64,000 bases of DNA from Rikenella microfusus (GTDB lineage Bacteria; Bacteroidota; Bacteroidia; Bacteroidales; VadinHA17), in the NCBI GenBank assembly GCA_022736275.1, contig DZBJ01000008.1:33334-97333 (forward strand), read 5' to 3'. A program made the translations under genes and the position numbers. The notes under the pieces were generated by a model. That model worked only from the letters and a program-made list of their open reading frames with translations, made no database searches and was not told the DNA's origin. Position 1 is the first letter of the stretch, and the number at the start of each line of letters is the position of its first letter. Below are positions 47,348-64,000 of this stretch, piece by piece.

Positions 47348-48895
47348 TCAACAGCAGGAGCGCGCTCCTGCTGTTGAAGCTGTTTTTGCACTTAAAACGT
47401 CACTTAGAGGAATCCGCCTTATCCTGCTTTCAATCCAGGCCGTAAAGTCAAATATTCTTAAAACCTGCCGTTCAAAAACATTCTGTCCAAGCAATTGGAG
47501 TTCTCCTGAAACTTCATCCCATAGTATGTTTCTTTCCCGGTTCCTTACCGGTAAATTTTGCTTATTCAGGAAACTTAGCATTACCTTCTCAATCTGATAA
47601 CCTTTGTCAAATCCCTTCATTTCTCTTTTAATAGATCTTGTTTCATAGCTTATGAGTTTCAGATCGCCTATTTCCATAAGTATCATAAGATTAACCAGCC
47701 TGATAGTACGGTATAACGGCAGATTAAAATACTCCTTTACCTTAAAAAATATCAGGTTGAGGTATTTATGTGCTCTCTTGAAGTCCTTATTTCCGAAAAA
47801 AATCAATGAAGCATAAAGACAAAGTTCTGCTTGCCGTGTCAGACTAAGTAGATGAAGCTTATTATACAATGTTTCCGTGAATTCTTCCATATGTACTGCC
47901 GACCCCGAAAAATCTCCCCTGTCAAATTTCGGGAACAGTTCGTACAGGAAGATAAGGCAATTAACATTTGCATTAAAACTTACTGATGGACTTTCCAGCT
48001 GTCTCAACTGTTCGATGAAATACACCATACCTTCATAATTCTTGATACACCGGAGACTGTCAAGCACTCCTTCCAGGGTTAGCAGATAATATATCGGCGG
48101 ATTGTCCCATAAATGCATGTTTTTTTCAAATAAAGTGTTCAATTCAATATATGATCTGAGTGCAGACTTGTAGTCACCAACACTTATCAGATAATTTGCC
48201 TGAAAGAGCTGATGCAATTTCTTAATCTCGAAATTCTCAAGATTAGAAGAAGCCATCATGCTCATTTCACTAACTACCAGATCATTAAGCTGATGTATTT
48301 GTTGTTGGGACCTTGCGTTACCAAAATATGCCACCCTGTATTTCAATAACTCGTAAAGTGATGATTGTTCATTGATCTTTCTTATTACACTGATTATTTC
48401 ATTTATCCTGTGGTGCTTGTAAAGTATCGTCTTTTCATCAACCATAGGGAAATTAAGAGCTAACAGATATTCAAGTTCAAGCCGTGATGCCAGCAAAAGG
48501 GCATAATAGTTTTCAAGTTTCTTCGAATCCTCAATCACCTTTTTCAGTAGATCAAAACTATCTTCAACTAACGATTTTTCAAAGAGTATCTTAGCCTTCA
48601 TTATCAGGTTAAAGAGAGTATAATAGCTATCCTGTTCTCTTCGTAACTCAAGTAATGTATCAAGTAATATTTTAGAGAGATAATTTACCGCGGTATTGAA
48701 GGATTTTACTCCGCTTTCAGAGAGGAACTGCTTCCGAATCGAATCAGTACCAGAGCTTCTGTTTTTTGAAATGATATCAAAAAGCATAAGATAACCTGGA
48801 ACCGTCTTATGCCTTAGTGATGCAATACGAAAAGCTTTCAACTCCGTCCGGGTCATTGATTTGACTAAAAATATCAGTGCATCGGATTTTAACAT
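47348..48895 (-). CDS. all-helical hypothetical protein, probable RusR-like regulator of the ribose PUL
   Basis: divergent from ribokinase-susC-susD; adjacent to the PUL as BT2802 (rusR) is in B. thetaiotaomicron; N-terminus LIFLVKSMTRTELKAF; homology not verified. Confidence 0.55.
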   Translation of the reverse strand: MLKSDALIFLVKSMTRTELKAFRIASLRHKTVPGYLMLFDIISKNRSSGTDSIRKQFLSESGVKSFNTAVNYLSKILLDTLLELRREQDSYYTLFNLIMKAKILFEKSLVEDSFDLLKKVIEDSKKLENYYALLLASRLELEYLLALNFPMVDEKTILYKHHRINEIISVIRKINEQSSLYELLKYRVAYFGNARSQQQIHQLNDLVVSEMSMMASSNLENFEIKKLHQLFQANYLISVGDYKSALRSYIELNTLFEKNMHLWDNPPIYYLLTLEGVLDSLRCIKNYEGMVYFIEQLRQLESPSVSFNANVNCLIFLYELFPKFDRGDFSGSAVHMEEFTETLYNKLHLLSLTRQAELCLYASLIFFGNKDFKRAHKYLNLIFFKVKEYFNLPLYRTIRLVNLMILMEIGDLKLISYETRSIKREMKGFDKGYQIEKVMLSFLNKQNLPVRNRERNILWDEVSGELQLLGQNVFERQVLRIFDFTAWIESRIRRIPLSDVLSAKTASTAGARSCC

Positions 48896-49092
48896 GGCAA
48901 TAATTTAAGGTTAATATTCAGAAAATTTAACAATAAATGTTATAATTATCATATTTTACGATAATAAGTCCAATATTCATATCTTTATATTACTGAATAT
49001 TAATTTTTTATCTATTTATCTTGCTATCTGAAAAGTATTTTACAATTATCAAATATCATGCTTTTTTGAAATACTTTGGTTGTATTATAACG

Positions 49093-49100
49093 TATATTTG
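49093..49100 (+). promoter_or_regulatory. -7 promoter element of the PUL operon
   Basis: TATATTTG 26 bp before rbsK; no TTTG at canonical -33 spacing. Confidence 0.6.
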
Positions 49101-49126
49101 GATTAAGAACTAATAAATATAAACAG

Positions 49127-61480: not shown

Positions 61481-61484
61481 CCGA

Positions 61485-63047
61485 ATGAAAAAGTCTTTAT
61501 TGATACTCCCGCTTTTGCTTCATTCCATCTATTCATTTTCTATGGATAATGAGGTAAGGGTTATGGAAAGCCTTAGCATGTACAGCAAAATACTAGGACG
61601 GGAGATCAAATATTCGATTTCCCTTCCAACGGATTATTTTAGAGGAAGCCGCTCTTATCCTGTTGTTTATCTCCTTCATGGCCTGGGTGATGATGAAACA
61701 TCCTGGCTGGAATATGGGACTATTACCCGGCTGTCAGATAAATATGTAAAAGAAAAGGAAATAGTTCCGATGATTTTTGTTATGCCGCAGGGATTCAGAA
61801 CCTACTATGTGAATGATTATGCAGGCACATTCATGTATCAGGATATGTTTGTTAAAGAGTTTATCCCGTACATCGACAGCTGTTACCGGACAATAGCTGA
61901 TAAGCAGCACCGCGCTGCGATGGGATACTCCATGGGCGGATTCGGTGCACTTATATTGCCACTGAAAAATCCTGACATATTTGCAGTTAGCGTTCCGTTA
62001 AGCATTTCAATCCGGACAGATGACCAATATATGAATGAAAATGCCAGAGAGTGGGATGAACAGTGGGGAAAACTTTTTGGAGGAGTCGGAACAACAGGAA
62101 AAGACAGGATAACAGACTATTACAAGCAAAACAATCCTTTCTATATTTTTGAGGGGAAAGACTTGTCGGAATTAAGCGAACTGAATATCTATATTGATAA
62201 CGGAGATGATGAGAATACTCTTTGCCGGAGTAATGAAGAGTTACATATTCTTTTAAGCAACATAGGATTTCCTCATGAATTCAGGGTGCGCGACGGAGGC
62301 CATACATTCCAATACTGGCGTTCAGCCATTCCCAATGCTTTCAGGTTTATAAGCGATGCATTTGAGTCGAAACCATACCGGGGAGATGTTGTGACAAAAC
62401 CTGCCCCTGCTCATATTACTGATCAACAATTCAGAAGCCTCATAATCAACAATAAAGCGACTTTTGTGTACGTTCCTGGTGATTATGATAATTCAACCCG
62501 GTTATACCCGGTTATTTATTTTGTCGGTACATTTACTAAATCTCAATGTCAGTCAGTTGCAGGATTTGTAAACCGGGAGTCAGAGAAGAATAATATATGC
62601 CAGATGCTGGTTGTTTTTATTCCTGAGATAACCGCCGGAGAAACAAAAACAACAATATCTCAGATTGAGGAGAAACTGAGGATCCGTAAGGGTTATCGCT
62701 TTCGGGTTCTTGCCGGTTATCAGAATGAAGCATTTAAAGTACTTTCATCAGTAATTAATGAAGAGCAATTTACCGGCTGTATCCTTTCCGATGGCTTCAT
62801 CCCGAAAGAGAGTATCTCAAAACTGCTTTCGGATATTAACACAGAAAAAATGAAAAGCACATCATTATTTATTGATGCACCTGACAAAAGCACTTATTTT
62901 GAAGCTAATGGGAATGTACACATGATCCTCCGCGACAAGGAGATACAACATGAATACAGGGTACGGGAAGGCGGTGGAGGATTTGAGTGGTTCATGGCAG
63001 GATTACCTGATATCCTCAGCTATTCATCAAAGAGATTTCATAAGTAG
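61485..63047 (+). CDS. exported double-domain esterase (paralog of 59888..61480)
   Basis: PVVYLLHG, GYSMGG, DNGDDE, GGHTF; second domain lacks the Ser (GYQNEA). Confidence 0.82.
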   Translation: MKKSLLILPLLLHSIYSFSMDNEVRVMESLSMYSKILGREIKYSISLPTDYFRGSRSYPVVYLLHGLGDDETSWLEYGTITRLSDKYVKEKEIVPMIFVMPQGFRTYYVNDYAGTFMYQDMFVKEFIPYIDSCYRTIADKQHRAAMGYSMGGFGALILPLKNPDIFAVSVPLSISIRTDDQYMNENAREWDEQWGKLFGGVGTTGKDRITDYYKQNNPFYIFEGKDLSELSELNIYIDNGDDENTLCRSNEELHILLSNIGFPHEFRVRDGGHTFQYWRSAIPNAFRFISDAFESKPYRGDVVTKPAPAHITDQQFRSLIINNKATFVYVPGDYDNSTRLYPVIYFVGTFTKSQCQSVAGFVNRESEKNNICQMLVVFIPEITAGETKTTISQIEEKLRIRKGYRFRVLAGYQNEAFKVLSSVINEEQFTGCILSDGFIPKESISKLLSDINTEKMKSTSLFIDAPDKSTYFEANGNVHMILRDKEIQHEYRVREGGGGFEWFMAGLPDILSYSSKRFHK

Positions 63048-63079
63048 ACTATTAATAATATTAACTAAAACCAGGAACC

Positions 63080-64000
63080 ATGTTTATCGTAGGTAGTTAC
63101 TCGCTGGCAGTTATACTCTGTTTCATTACTATGCTCTGCTGGGGATCGTGGGCAAACACCCAGAAAATAGCAGCTAAAAACTGGAGATTCGAACTTTTTT
63201 ATTGGGACTATGTTCTTGGAATCCTCCTCTTTTCTTTGATATTTGGTCTCACACTGGGAAGTACCGGAACAAAAGGGATGAGCTTTATTGCAAGTATAAG
63301 CCAGGCAAGTACTTCCAGCATTGTCAACCCTATTATCGGAGGGATAATATTTAACCTTTCCAACATCCTTCTTGTTGCTGCAATATCAATAGCAGGGATG
63401 GCTATTGCATTTCCTGTTGGTGTTGGTCTTTGCATGGTCCTTGGGGTACTTATCAATTATATTGCTGCACCCAAAGGTGATCCCATCCTTTTATTTATAG
63501 GTGTTGGAATTGTGGTTATTGCCATCATATTGGATGCATTGGCATACAAAAAGCTTGCTTTTAGTGAAAAAAAGACACCAACAAAAGGGATTGTCCTTTC
63601 AGTAGTGGCTGGATTTCTCATGGCATGGTTCTTCCGTTTTGTTGCGAGTGCAATTGCTGTGGATCCTGAACAGACGGCAGCAGGAATGGCAGAGGCCGGA
63701 AAACTGACTCCGTATGCTGCATTTTTCTTCTTTGTAATTGGTATAGTTATCAGCAATTTTCTGTTCAATACATACCTTATGAAGAAGCCAATAGAGGGCG
63801 AGCCGGTAACTTTCAGTCAATATTTCCAGGGGAATATGCGCAGCCATTTCTCAGGGATAATTGGTGGTATGTTCTGGGCTCTTGGAACATCATTAAGTCT
63901 TCTGGCAGCGGGTAAAGCCGGATATGCCATATCTTTCGGATTAGGACAGGGTGCCACAATGGTAGGAGCTTTCTGGGGAGTATTTATCTGGAAAGAATTC
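63080..64000 (+). CDS. GRP/ureide-permease-like DMT sugar transporter (RusT-like), cut by the window end
   Basis: Manual translation from ATG 63080: MFIVGSYSLAVILCFITMLCWGSWANTQK...WRFELFYWDY; the last bases read AISFGLGQGATMVGAFWGVFIWKEF in frame; absent from the ORF track because there is no stop. Confidence 0.85.
   Translation, partial: MFIVGSYSLAVILCFITMLCWGSWANTQKIAAKNWRFELFYWDYVLGILLFSLIFGLTLGSTGTKGMSFIASISQASTSSIVNPIIGGIIFNLSNILLVAAISIAGMAIAFPVGVGLCMVLGVLINYIAAPKGDPILLFIGVGIVVIAIILDALAYKKLAFSEKKTPTKGIVLSVVAGFLMAWFFRFVASAIAVDPEQTAAGMAEAGKLTPYAAFFFFVIGIVISNFLFNTYLMKKPIEGEPVTFSQYFQGNMRSHFSGIIGGMFWALGTSLSLLAAGKAGYAISFGLGQGATMVGAFWGVFIWKEF

What the first reader, a model, noticed from the sequence alone, without database searches (positions are those of the whole stretch)
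47348..64000. Ribose PUL armed with three exported ADP-ribosylglycohydrolases: candidate system for feeding on ADP-ribose or ADP-ribosylated molecules
Seen: divergent helical regulator, ribokinase, SusC, SusD, three ARH-family enzymes (one with a cleavable signal peptide plus accessory domains, two lipoproteins), two esterases and a DMT permease, tightly packed on one strand. Known: the B. thetaiotaomicron Rus locus has a regulator, ribokinases, SusC/D and a permease but carries a nucleoside hydrolase and a glycoside hydrolase; ARH/DraG enzymes normally erase ADP-ribosylation in the cytoplasm. ARH-containing Rus variants have, as I recall, been noted bioinformatically, but I know of no demonstrated substrate. 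Inference: signalling 'erasers' repurposed as extracytoplasmic catabolic enzymes that release ribose from mono/poly-ADP-ribose, ADP-ribosylated protein or another ribofuranoside.
Basis: partly seen in the sequence, partly recalled or inferred. Interest (0 to 1): 0.85.

Follow-up and report, generated by a model that had tools for sequence, protein, structure and literature searches.

The report
Ribose-scavenging locus with secreted ARH-fold hydrolases
This is a horizontally acquired ribose-utilisation gene cluster of a Bacteroidota bacterium whose three exported enzymes have the fold of ADP-ribose-removing enzymes but look like sugar-releasing digestive enzymes, and in most relatives the cluster is tied to citrate uptake and breakdown genes, which hints at an unknown ribose-plus-acid nutrient.

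Summary
Window 47348-64000 holds a divergent BT2802/RusR-family regulator, then ribokinase, SusC, SusD, three PF03747 (ARH) proteins, two PF00756 esterases and a GRP/DMT sugar permease. ARH-bearing rus loci were already reported bioinformatically, without a substrate (Glowacki 2019 preprint).

New here:
- The nine-gene run is a fixed cassette: complete and in the same order in 55 of 80 related loci across several Bacteroidota orders. In this genome it lies in the most AT-rich stretch.
- All three ARHs keep the catalytic Glu and the di-metal Asp motifs, carry CBM-like domains, and their subfamily is fused elsewhere to GH domains and PF00756 esterases.
- The cassette encodes no phosphatase or pyrophosphatase, so it cannot free ribose from ADP-ribose by itself.
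- 54 of 80 loci carry a citrate transporter and/or citrate lyase beside the cassette. In 3 of 3 extended Cytophagales/Flavobacteriales genomes these genes sit between RusR and the ribokinase.

Best reading: secreted ribofuranosidases act on an esterified, non-nucleotide riboside, possibly a ribosylated tricarboxylate. ADP-ribose feeding is a weaker rival. The substrate remains unproven.

The parts
47348..48895 (-). RusR-type regulator (BT2802 family), divergent from the operon
   Evidence: NCBIfam NF058569, 626.1 bits against a cut-off of 550, residues 1-501. No Pfam family.
48896..49126 (.). 231-nt divergent control region, GC 0.19, with a TATATTTG element about 20 nt before the ribokinase ATG
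   Evidence: Sequence; GC. That TAnnTTTG is the Bacteroidetes -7 promoter consensus is recalled knowledge, not tested here.
49127..50047 (+). Ribokinase
   Evidence: PF00294, 229 bits. TIGR02152, 365.1 bits against a cut-off of 299.65. It is the only strong ribokinase hit in the genome.
50060..53110 (+). SusC-type TonB-dependent transporter
   Evidence: TIGR04056, 684 bits. Plug, barrel and CarbopepD_reg_2 domains.
53134..54642 (+). SusD-type lipoprotein
   Evidence: PF07980 and PF14322. Lipobox Cys followed by TDLTEE. 64 of 72 orthologues match a crude lipobox pattern.
54651..56657 (+). ARH-A: SPI-secreted ARH-fold hydrolase (aa 33-376), an Ig-like linker and a CBM32/discoidin-like domain (aa 483-667)
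   Evidence: PF03747, 99 bits. Model pLDDT 83. ARH fold Z 23.5-27.5. C-terminal domain Z 11-15 to BgaA/BbgIII accessory domains and CBM32s. E58, D90-D92, D306 and D308 are invariant in 75 of 75 sequences.
56664..58310 (+). ARH-B: lipoprotein with an ARH-fold hydrolase (aa 39-380) and a C-terminal beta-jelly-roll (aa 405-537)
   Evidence: PF03747, 125 bits. Model pLDDT 91. Z 31.7, rmsd 2.6 over 297 residues, to ARH3 (6g1p). C-terminal domain Z 8-9 to CE2 N-domains and about 6 to CBM35/36. E66, D99, D100, D317 and D319 are invariant in 77 of 77 sequences.
58307..59875 (+). ARH-C: lipoprotein, paralogue of ARH-B (50% identity) with the same architecture
   Evidence: PF03747, 132 bits. Pairwise comparison. 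E63, D96 and D97 are invariant in 76 of 76 sequences; D314 and D316 in 75 of 76.
59888..61480 (+). Est1: lipoprotein with an active CE1-like esterase half and a non-catalytic esterase-like half
   Evidence: PF00756, 116 bits, aa 50-301. Ser163, Asp255 and His287 are invariant in 71 of 71 sequences. The equivalent nucleophile position in the C-terminal half is not conserved.
61485..63047 (+). Est2: SPI-secreted paralogue of Est1 (40% identity) with the same two-half build
   Evidence: PF00756, 127 bits. Best solved relatives are ferulic acid esterases 7xrt/7xrv (E 3e-48) and 5vol. Ser149, Asp241 and His273 are invariant in 68 of 68 sequences.
63080..64000 (+). Sugar permease of the GRP/DMT type. 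It runs off the window; the full length is 338 aa
   Evidence: PF07168 and PF06800. TIGR00776 RhaT/GlcU, below its cut-off. Full ORF at L002 414-1430.

Best explanation
This is a rus-type ribose-scavenging PUL, carried on a horizontally acquired island.

Shown:
- RusR-family regulator, ribokinase, SusC/D, three exported ARH-fold proteins with an intact Glu plus di-Asp metal site, two exported Ser-Asp-His esterases, and a sugar permease.
- The same gene order recurs across several Bacteroidota orders.
- The cassette is frequently linked physically to a citrate-type transporter and to citrate lyase.

Inferred mechanism:
1. SusD/SusC capture and import an anionic, ester-bearing ribofuranoside too large for porins.
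2. The two CE1-like esterases strip acyl, ester or lactone groups. This frees the ribose 2,3-cis-diol that an ARH di-metal site needs.
3. ARH-A, ARH-B and ARH-C act as metal-dependent exo-ribofuranosidases, not as erasers of ADP-ribosylation. Each is tuned to a different ribosidic bond, and each releases free ribose.
4. Ribose enters through the GRP/DMT permease and is phosphorylated by ribokinase. Ribose, or a derivative of it, switches on RusR.
5. In most lineages the non-sugar part is a citrate-like tricarboxylate. It enters through the adjacent DASS or CitMHS carrier and is split by citrate lyase.
For: Family assignments are.

Cassette conservation:
- 55 of 80 loci have the full nine-gene run in the same order.
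- 20 more are contiguous parts cut by contig ends.
- 5 are other: 3 are split hits, and 2 are rumen loci with the permease moved and Est2 missing.
- All three ARHs are present in 72 of 80 loci.

Enzymes:
- Active-site motifs are invariant in the orthologues and map onto the Glu, DD and DxD motifs of MJ1187 and Tri1.
- ARH fold Z 23.5-31.7.
- ARH-A has a CBM32-like domain, Z 11-15. ARH-B has a CE2/CBM35-like jelly-roll, Z 6-9.

Subfamily context. I scanned 42 long members (700 aa or more) out of the best 150:
- Of 7 scanned: GH84-like, GH92, GH43, a weak GH42-like hit, Laminin_G_3, PKD and FG-GAP.
- Of 35 scanned: PKD_4 in 20, Laminin_G_3 in 5, F5/8-type-C in 4, PF00756 esterase in 3, T9SS tail in 2, GH43 in 1.

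No phosphatase or pyrophosphatase is among the ten genes.

Citrate link:
- 54 of 80 loci have DASS, CitMHS, CitD/E or CitF within the flanks; 7 have adequate flanks and none; 19 are too short to say.
- Counts of 80: DASS 30, CitMHS 8, CitF 25, CitD/E 24.
- The CitMHS representative scores 543.8 bits on TIGR00784 against a cut-off of 259.7.
- In 3 of 3 extended genomes the order is RusR <-> DASS-CitD/E-CitF-ribokinase....
- The base rate of full-length CitF is 32 of 401 sampled Bacteroidota genomes.

The window's own contig has DASS two genes after the permease, inside the same low-GC island.
Against: - No enzyme was assayed and no substrate is known.
- The family is defined by ADP-ribose hydrolases, and B. 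thetaiotaomicron grows on ADP-ribose in a rus-dependent way (preprint passage).
- The citrate lyase is not obligatory. In 10 of 10 cassette-bearing genomes without citrate genes beside the cassette, no CitF was found anywhere. These are MAGs of 1.1-4.8 Mb of unknown completeness. The gut and rumen loci use LacI and lack citrate genes.
- In this genome CitD/E-CitF lie on another contig at native GC.
- CitE and CitD score below NCBIfam's equivalog cut-offs, and CitF is barely above.
- Related loci are not independent samples.
- The esterases' nearest solved relatives are feruloyl esterases, which points to plant-type esters rather than citrate esters.
- The CBM-like matches for ARH-B are at a middling Z.
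Confidence: 0.4

Rival explanations
1. The three enzymes are true ADP-ribosyl hydrolases working outside the cytoplasm. They feed the cell from poly- or mono-ADP-ribose, ADP-ribosylated proteins, O-acetyl-ADP-ribose or NAD-derived material. The esterases remove O-acetyl groups, and housekeeping periplasmic phosphatases finish the job.
For: - PF03747 membership.
- ARH fold with the Glu and di-Asp motifs kept.
- B. thetaiotaomicron uses ADP-ribose in a rus-dependent manner, and the authors list (poly)ADP-ribose among candidate ribose sources.
- One subfamily member is fused to an endonuclease/exonuclease/phosphatase domain (P0127).
- A histidine phosphatase gene lies downstream in one gut-type locus (L080).
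Against: - ARH action gives ADP-ribose, not ribose, and no phosphatase or pyrophosphatase is in the ten-gene locus.
- Identity to solved ADP-ribose hydrolases is only 11-17%.
- CBM-like domains and GH-domain fusions point to glycans or glycosides.
- The citrate gene link is unexplained.
- Three conserved paralogues plus two CE1-type esterases are more than ADP-ribose seems to need.
Confidence: 0.15
2. The target is an O-acylated polysaccharide or oligosaccharide with terminal ribofuranose, such as a bacterial capsule, an O-antigen or an algal or plant glycan. The ARHs are ribofuranosidases as in the best reading. The citrate transporter and lyase are an independent unit that merely travels with the island or serves co-metabolism.
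For: - SusC/D plus CBM32-like and CE2/CBM35-like domains.
- Esterases closest to CE1 feruloyl or acetyl esterases.
- GH-domain fusions in the subfamily.
- The cassette occurs without any CitF in 10 of 10 genomes checked.
- The authors of the rus study suspected 'larger polymers' as targets.
Against: - No endo-acting GH or lyase is in the cassette, so a polymer backbone could not be cut.
- ARH identity is very high across orders (median 68-73%), which argues for one invariant small target rather than variable surface glycans.
- The citrate genes sit between RusR and the ribokinase in 3 of 3 extended genomes, and DASS is replaced by CitMHS at the same position. That is hard to see as chance.
Confidence: 0.2
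3. The ARH-fold proteins do not release ribose at all. They act on another furanoside or on a non-carbohydrate bond, or they are binding proteins. The ribokinase, permease and RusR part only supplies the inducing signal.
For: - The enzymes of the B. thetaiotaomicron rus locus were dispensable for growth on ribose and nucleosides and had only weak activities.
- No member of this subfamily has been assayed: no paper was found.
Against: - Catalytic residues are invariant in all three orthologue groups.
- The ARH fold is known only for ribosyl C1'' hydrolysis (entry titles).
- The fixed linkage to ribokinase and permease holds in 55 of 80 complete loci.
Confidence: 0.05

Closest known systems
B. 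thetaiotaomicron ribose utilization system (rus, BT2802-BT2809) and the rus-like PUL family of Glowacki et al. (bioRxiv 10.1101/574913; passages read)
   Same: - A divergent BT2802-family regulator, ribokinase, SusC/SusD and a sugar permease.
- A variable enzyme slot.
- The paper explicitly lists ADP-ribosylglycohydrolases and esterases among the enzymes of its 70 rus configurations, and it used the ADP-RGH of B. xylanisolvens XB1A as a search query.
   Different: - One ribokinase instead of two.
- No nucleoside hydrolase and no RusGH. In their place are a fixed trio of ARH-fold enzymes, two tandem CE1-like esterases and a DUF4595 lipoprotein.
- Linkage to a DASS or CitMHS carrier and to citrate lyase. 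The words citrate, lyase, symporter and DASS occur nowhere in the preprint's main text.
- The supplementary figures and tables that list the 70 configurations could not be seen.
ARH3 / ARH1 / DraG / Tri1 / MJ1187 (PF03747 ADP-ribosylglycohydrolases; solved structures 6g1p, 6g28, 3g9d, 6dre, 1t5j)
   Same: - All-helical ARH fold: Z 23.5-31.7, rmsd 2.6-3.8 over 280-315 residues for seven of the eight top chains. The exception is 6dre against the ARH-A model, at rmsd 5.5 over 311 residues.
- The N-terminal Gly-rich motif ending in the catalytic Glu, the DD motif and the DxD motif are all kept.
   Different: - 11-17% identity.
- Exported: two as lipoproteins, one with an SPI leader.
- The Ser/Thr that flanks the Asp motifs is replaced: F/Y-DD, and DxD-C/N.
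- An extra invariant acidic loop, NNPHADDxDFQIEADF.
- C-terminal CBM-like domains.
- PUL context. No ADP-ribosyltransferase partner is among the genes scanned in the window or on the rest of the contig.
CE1 feruloyl/acetyl esterases of Bacteroides xylan PULs (solved: 7xrt/7xrv 'ferulic acid esterase', 5vol 'putative esterase')
   Same: - PF00756 alpha/beta hydrolase with a GxSxG Ser, an Asp and a His.
- E 3e-48 to 4e-34 over the whole N-terminal half.
- Exported, and PUL-encoded.
   Different: - A second, esterase-like half without a conserved nucleophile.
- The partner enzymes are ARH-fold proteins, not xylanases or arabinofuranosidases.
Bacterial citrate fermentation modules (CitMHS or DASS carrier with CitDEF citrate lyase)
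   Same: - Carrier plus a CitD/E fusion and CitF.
- TIGR00784 at 543.8 bits, TIGR00785 at 261-276 bits, TIGR01584 at 501.7 bits.
   Different: - Embedded in, or abutting, a RusR-headed ribose PUL.
- CitE and CitD score below their equivalog cut-offs, so the true substrate could be a citrate analogue.
- No CitC, CitG or CitX was looked for.

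Membership tests
rus-type ribose utilization PUL | BT2802/RusR-family regulator next to the locus | tested here: met
   NF058569, 626.1 bits against a cut-off of 550. Divergent orientation, 231-nt gap.
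rus-type ribose utilization PUL | Ribokinase in the operon | tested here: met
   TIGR02152, 365.1 bits against a cut-off of 299.65.
rus-type ribose utilization PUL | Adjacent SusC/SusD pair | tested here: met
   TIGR04056 at 684 bits, and PF07980.
rus-type ribose utilization PUL | RusT-type ribose permease | tested here: inconclusive
   A GRP/DMT sugar permease is present (PF07168, PF06800). It was not compared with BT2809 itself, and TIGR00776 scores below its cut-off.
rus-type ribose utilization PUL | Induction by ribose and a requirement for growth on ribose | not testable with these tools
   No RNA holder was listed. Needs culture work.
ADP-ribosylglycohydrolase (PF03747 / ARH) | Pfam domain above the gathering score | tested here: met
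   99.3, 124.8 and 131.9 bits against a cut-off of 26.2.
ADP-ribosylglycohydrolase (PF03747 / ARH) | ARH fold | tested here: met
   Z 25.8-31.7 for ARH-B and Z 23.5-27.5 for ARH-A against ARH3, MJ1187, ARH1, Tri1 and DraG.
ADP-ribosylglycohydrolase (PF03747 / ARH) | Catalytic Glu and the acidic residues of the binuclear metal site | tested here: met
   Met at the sequence level only. The motifs align to MJ1187 and Tri1 and are invariant in 75 of 75, 77 of 77 and 75-76 of 76 orthologues. In the wider subfamily they are kept in 32-36 of 40 sequences. The residue roles are recalled from the ARH3 and DraG literature.
ADP-ribosylglycohydrolase (PF03747 / ARH) | Binding and hydrolysis of an ADP-ribosyl substrate (adenosine-diphosphate groove) | not testable with these tools
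   No model coordinates and no ligand docking were on hand. Needs assays or structures.
CE1-type esterase (PF00756) | Ser-Asp-His triad in an alpha/beta hydrolase domain | tested here: met
   PF00756 at 116 and 127 bits. Triad invariant in 71 of 71 and 68 of 68 sequences, N-terminal half only.
CE1-type esterase (PF00756) | Feruloyl or acetyl esterase activity | not testable with these tools
   The nearest solved relatives are named ferulic acid esterases. Activity was not assayed.
CBM32 / F5-8 type C domain (ARH-A C-terminus) | Discoidin-type beta-sandwich recognised by the family model | tested here: inconclusive
   Fold match Z 11-15, rmsd 2.2-3.1 over 120-153 residues. PF00754 was not detected at E up to 0.01.
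Citrate uptake and citrate lyase module | Citrate-type carrier and CitDEF adjacent to the cassette | tested here: inconclusive
   - This genome has DASS (TIGR00785, 276 bits) two genes after the permease. CitD/E and CitF lie on another contig.
- Relatives: 54 of 80 loci have such a gene nearby.
- 10 of 10 other cassette genomes have no CitF.

The most novel reading that the evidence does not exclude
The cassette is a dedicated catabolic system for ribosylated tricarboxylic acids of the ribocitrin type.

Ribocitrin is described as 'a tririboside of (S)-homocitric acid' with unknown biosynthesis. It has been tentatively detected in freshwater Streptomyces (passages in PMC12381216 and PMC13136089).

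On this reading:
- The three invariant ARH-fold paralogues would found a new metal-dependent ribofuranosidase (glycoside hydrolase) family, one enzyme for each of the three ribosidic bonds.
- The esterases would open ester or lactone forms.
- A compound of roughly 600 Da (my estimate) would need the SusC/D import route.
- The (homo)citrate aglycone would enter through DASS or CitMHS and be split by a citrate-lyase-like enzyme.

This would reveal a widespread Bacteroidota pathway for eating an actinomycete metabolite, and a second biochemical life for the ARH fold.
Probability: 0.12. Interest if true: 0.85.

Novelty: new variant of a known kind. Interest (0 to 1): 0.6.

Why it matters
The natural substrates of rus-type PULs are still unknown, even for the B. 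thetaiotaomicron prototype, where the locus enzymes were dispensable and only weakly active.

This cassette is a cleaner test case:
- Its enzyme set is fixed and highly conserved.
- It occurs in cultured isolates: Marinoscillum luteum KCTC 23939, Gelidibacter salicanalis PAMC21136 and Ferruginibacter sp. HRS2-29.
- It carries a second metabolic clue, the citrate carrier and lyase, that narrows the search for the substrate.

If the ARH-fold proteins are ribofuranosidases, a fold known only from reversal of ADP-ribosylation would also be a carbohydrate-active enzyme family. That family is large: 3496 cluster representatives at E up to 0.001, of which 434 are at E up to 1e-30.

Tried and rejected
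- **The search of earlier findings.** Closed, so no earlier notes were used.
- **Literature.**
  - 'ribofuranosidase': 0 papers.
  - 'ADP-ribosylglycohydrolase' with 'polysaccharide utilization': only the Glowacki preprint.
  - With SusD/PUL/ribokinase, nothing further of relevance.
  - 'ribofuranos' with PUL terms: 4 papers, none on such enzymes.
  - 'ADP-ribosylglycohydrolase' with 'citrate lyase': 4 unrelated papers.
  - 'homocitric acid' with 'ribofuranosyl': 0 papers.
  - The 1982 ribocitrin structure paper is not held. The anomeric configuration of its riboses is therefore unverified, and I make no claim on it.
  - Supplementary files of the Glowacki paper were not available. They may already show this exact configuration or the citrate genes.
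- **Sequence search of the PDB.**
  - ARH-B and its family profile gave only weak C-terminal-motif hits to 6dre and 1t5j.
  - ARH-A gave only a chance-level proteasome hit.
- **Sequencing runs.** No RNA holder was listed, so nothing can be said on expression. DNA holders with large shares carry soil, biofilm, cave and sediment labels, and several may be the source sample.
- **Promoter and terminator scan.** After the permease, the sigma-70/terminator scan gave counts near the shuffles and no terminator between the permease and the lipoprotein. It says little for Bacteroidota.
- **Shared operator motif.** I looked by eye for a motif shared between the RusR-ribokinase, RusR-DASS and CitF-ribokinase spacers. 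I saw only promoter-like TTTG elements and dropped it.
- **Even phylum sample.** ARH-B-like hits were found in 9 of 401 genomes including this one, all at 55% identity or less outside this genome. The sample did not catch cassette orthologues, so it could not test genome-level co-occurrence with CitF.
- **Complex prediction, the ESM Atlas and RNA tools** were not used.

Full report
**What is there.** The stretch 47348-64000 holds ten open reading frames. One lies on the minus strand and nine are tightly packed on the plus strand, with gaps of -4 to 33 nt.
- The divergent 515-aa protein has no Pfam family. It is a BT2802 (RusR) family member: NF058569, 626 bits against a cut-off of 550.
- The nine plus-strand genes are, in order: a ribokinase (TIGR02152, 365 bits against a cut-off of 299.65), SusC, SusD, three PF03747 proteins, two PF00756 esterases and a GRP/DMT sugar permease.
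- I call the three PF03747 proteins ARH-A (668 aa), ARH-B (548 aa) and ARH-C (522 aa).
- The permease runs off the window. On the contig it is 338 aa. It is followed 47 nt later by a 349-aa lipoprotein with a DUF4595-type C-terminal half, and then by a DASS family carrier. The contig ends 400 bases after that.
- The leaders were read by eye. ARH-A and Est2 have ordinary signal peptides. SusD, ARH-B, ARH-C and Est1 have lipoprotein signals. Orthologues agree under a crude pattern.

**What was already known.** The Glowacki et al. preprint (10.1101/574913; passages read) defines the B. thetaiotaomicron rus locus.
- It reports 70 rus configurations across Bacteroidetes whose enzymes include ADP-ribosylglycohydrolases and esterases.
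- It used the ADP-RGH of B. xylanisolvens XB1A as a search query, and no substrate is given for these enzymes.
- It names (poly)ADP-ribose as one of several possible ribose sources.
- In the prototype, the locus enzymes were dispensable for growth on ribose and nucleosides and had only weak activities.

So an ARH-armed rus PUL is a known kind. I found no later paper on such enzymes.

**The cassette is fixed, widespread and mobile.**
- ARH-B has more than 7217 relatives in the word-indexed collection (8000 candidates scored).
- It has 3496 cluster representatives at E up to 0.001, of which 434 are at E up to 1e-30.
- A scan of one genome per species found 587 relatives, of which 80 loci were kept.
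- With the window's proteins as tblastn queries, 55 of 80 loci show the complete run ribokinase-SusC-SusD-ARH-A-ARH-B-ARH-C-Est1-Est2-permease in that order.
- Another 20 are contiguous parts cut by contig ends. Five differ: three are split hits, and two are rumen loci with the permease moved and Est2 missing.
- By their record titles, the loci come from Bacteroidales, Lentimicrobiaceae, Marinilabiliales, Cyclobacteriaceae, Saprospiraceae, Chitinophagales, Flavobacteriales isolates and rumen or gut MAGs.
- Median identities to the window's proteins are highest for the ribokinase (74%) and the ARHs (68-73%), and lowest for the esterases (45-51%).
- In an even sample of the phylum, ARH-B-like genes were found in 9 of 401 genomes, so the distribution is patchy.
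- In this genome the locus has GC 0.396 against 0.499 for the genome. It holds the lowest of 496 windows of 16.6 kb, which have mean 0.502 and sd 0.019. The low-GC stretch runs from about 41000 to the contig end.
- The genome has no other ARH gene, no other close copy of these esterases and no other strong ribokinase hit.

I read this as a horizontally acquired island.

**The three ARH proteins look like active enzymes of a distant, extracytoplasmic subfamily.**
- Pairwise identity: ARH-B and ARH-C are 50% identical; ARH-A is 29% identical to ARH-B.
- Models: AlphaFold models are confident, pLDDT 91 for ARH-B and 83 for ARH-A.
- Fold: both catalytic domains match ARH3, MJ1187, ARH1, Tri1 and DraG at Z 23.5-31.7 with 12-17% identity. 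Foldseek agrees.
- Motifs: a family profile aligns the N-terminal Gly-rich motif ending in Glu, the DD motif and the DxD motif to those of MJ1187 and Tri1.
- Conservation: these residues are invariant in 75 of 75 ARH-A, 77 of 77 ARH-B and 75-76 of 76 ARH-C orthologues. In 40 diverse subfamily members they are kept in 32-36.

The accessory domains look carbohydrate-binding.
- ARH-A ends in a discoidin/CBM32-like domain: Z 11-15, rmsd 2.2-3.1 over 120-153 residues.
- ARH-B ends in a beta-jelly-roll like the N-domain of CE2 esterases (Z 8-9) and like CBM35/36 (Z about 6). That is a middling score.

I scanned 42 long subfamily members, chosen by length from the best 150.
- The ARH domain is fused to GH84-like, GH92 and GH43 domains, to Laminin_G_3, to PKD and to FG-GAP (7 scanned).
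- Among a further 35: PKD_4 in 20, Laminin_G_3 in 5, F5/8-type-C in 4, PF00756 esterase in 3, a T9SS tail in 2, and GH43 and an EEP phosphatase-type domain in 1 each.

This is the company kept by secreted glycan-degrading enzymes, not by cytoplasmic erasers of ADP-ribosylation.

**The esterases.** Est1 and Est2 are 40% identical.
- Their N-terminal halves are closest to solved ferulic acid esterases: 7xrt/7xrv at E 3e-48, and 5vol.
- They keep Ser, Asp and His in 71 of 71 and 68 of 68 orthologues.
- The C-terminal, esterase-like halves have no conserved nucleophile.

**Why ADP-ribose is not my leading reading.** An ARH cuts the bond at ribose C1''. From PAR or an ADP-ribosylated protein this gives ADP-ribose, in which the ribose is still held by its 5''-phosphate (established chemistry).
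- None of the ten genes is a phosphatase, nucleotidase or pyrophosphatase.
- The same nine-gene run is complete in 55 of 80 related loci.
- A system whose other parts are a ribose permease and a ribokinase is served more simply by enzymes that release free ribose.
- An ARH metal site binds the 2'',3''-cis-diol (recalled from the ARH3 literature). That would explain the need for esterases if the riboses are acylated.

This is inference. Housekeeping phosphatases could fill the gap, and B. thetaiotaomicron does use ADP-ribose in a rus-dependent way. So the rival keeps some weight.

**An unexpected link to citrate.**
- *Recurring neighbours.* Clustering the unassigned neighbours in the 80 loci and searching with their representatives gave four of them:
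  - a DUF4595-type lipoprotein right after the permease in 58 of 80 loci, and, by Pfam, also in four gut or rumen loci checked;
  - a DASS carrier in 30 loci;
  - a CitMHS carrier in 8 others at the same position (TIGR00784, 543.8 bits against a cut-off of 259.7);
  - a CitD-CitE fusion in 24 loci and CitF in 25 (PF04223, 452 bits; TIGR01584, 501.7 bits against a cut-off of 501.45).
- *Overall count.* 54 of 80 loci have at least one citrate-type gene within the 10-kb flanks. Seven have adequate flanks and none, and 19 are too short to say.
- *Arrangements.* They differ between groups: downstream of the lipoprotein, in either orientation, in Bacteroidales- and Chitinophagales-type loci, and immediately upstream of the ribokinase in Cytophagales- and Flavobacteriales-type loci.
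- *Extended genomes.* I extended three of the latter genomes: a Cyclobacteriaceae chromosome, Marinoscillum luteum KCTC 23939 and Gelidibacter salicanalis PAMC21136.
  - All three showed the order RusR (634-696 bits), divergent from DASS-CitD/E-CitF-ribokinase-SusC and the rest of the cassette.
  - The citrate genes therefore sit between the rus regulator and the rus operon.
- *Base rate.* Full-length CitF occurs in 32 of 401 sampled genomes of the phylum.
- *Prior print.* The preprint's main text never mentions citrate, lyase, symporter or DASS.

**Evidence against an obligatory coupling.**
- In 10 of 10 cassette-bearing genomes without nearby citrate genes, no CitF was found anywhere. These are MAGs of unknown completeness.
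- Gut and rumen loci have LacI regulators and no citrate genes.
- In the window's own genome only the DASS carrier travels with the island. CitD/E-CitF lie mid-contig elsewhere at native GC.
- CitE and CitD score below their equivalog cut-offs.
- The loci are related, so the counts overstate the number of independent events.

**Most likely mechanism.** My confidence in this model is 0.4.
1. SusC/D import an ester-bearing, non-nucleotide ribofuranoside.
2. Est1 and Est2 remove the esters.
3. The three ARH-fold enzymes act as metal-dependent ribofuranosidases on different linkages.
4. Ribose enters by the permease and is phosphorylated.
5. RusR responds to ribose.
6. In most lineages the aglycone or companion is a citrate-like acid that enters by DASS or CitMHS and is split by the lyase.

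A concrete but speculative candidate is ribocitrin. Two recent papers describe it as a tririboside of (S)-homocitric acid of unknown biosynthesis, tentatively seen in freshwater Streptomyces (passages). Three riboses would match three paralogues, and its size (my estimate, about 600 Da) would call for a TonB-dependent importer. I put this at about 0.12.

The rivals are:
- ADP-ribose-type substrates (0.15);
- an acylated ribofuranose-bearing polysaccharide, with the citrate genes as bystanders (0.2);
- no ribose release at all (0.05).

**Verdict.** The kind of locus is in print. The fixed cassette, its mobility, the glycosidase-like context of the ARH subfamily and the citrate link were not found in print by the searches named above. 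The substrate remains unknown and can only be settled at the bench.

Noticed in passing
window 41000-64000 and on to the contig end (window-relative about 67321): A low-GC island: about 0.34-0.45 per kb against 0.499 for the genome. The PUL holds the lowest of 496 windows of 16.6 kb. The island also includes the upstream DcaP-like porin and SH3-like genes, and the downstream lipoprotein and DASS carrier.
   Followed up: partly
just beyond the window: L002 1477-2526 (window-relative 64143-65192): A 349-aa lipoprotein whose C-terminal half is 48% identical to DUF4595/Fib_succ_major proteins. Such proteins follow the permease in 58 of 80 related loci, and DUF4595 proteins also follow the cassette in four gut or rumen loci. 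It may be a tenth core member, perhaps a surface binding protein.
   Followed up: partly
window 45170-47085 (-): A DcaP-like outer-membrane porin (PF19577, E 1e-17) and a small SH3_3-like protein lie directly upstream of RusR, inside the low-GC stretch.
   Followed up: no
proteins P0126, P0136, P0148, P0127: Members of the same ARH subfamily are fused to a GH84-like NAGidase, GH92, GH43 and an endonuclease/exonuclease/phosphatase domain. Three others are fused to PF00756 esterases.
   Followed up: partly
L056 18557-19651: A DDE transposase gene follows the permease in the Gelidibacter salicanalis locus. This fits a mobile cassette.
   Followed up: no
L080 18809-20158: A histidine phosphatase (His_Phos_2) gene lies downstream of the DUF4595 gene in one gut-type (Alistipes-labelled) locus. 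Only this one locus was looked at.
   Followed up: no
window 49095-49106: TATATTTG lies about 20 nt upstream of the ribokinase start, in a spacer of GC 0.19. It resembles the Bacteroidetes -7 promoter element (recalled).
   Followed up: no
L073 17-1741: In a rumen locus, a 574-aa protein with a uridine kinase/phosphoribulokinase (PRK) domain lies just upstream of the ribokinase.
   Followed up: no
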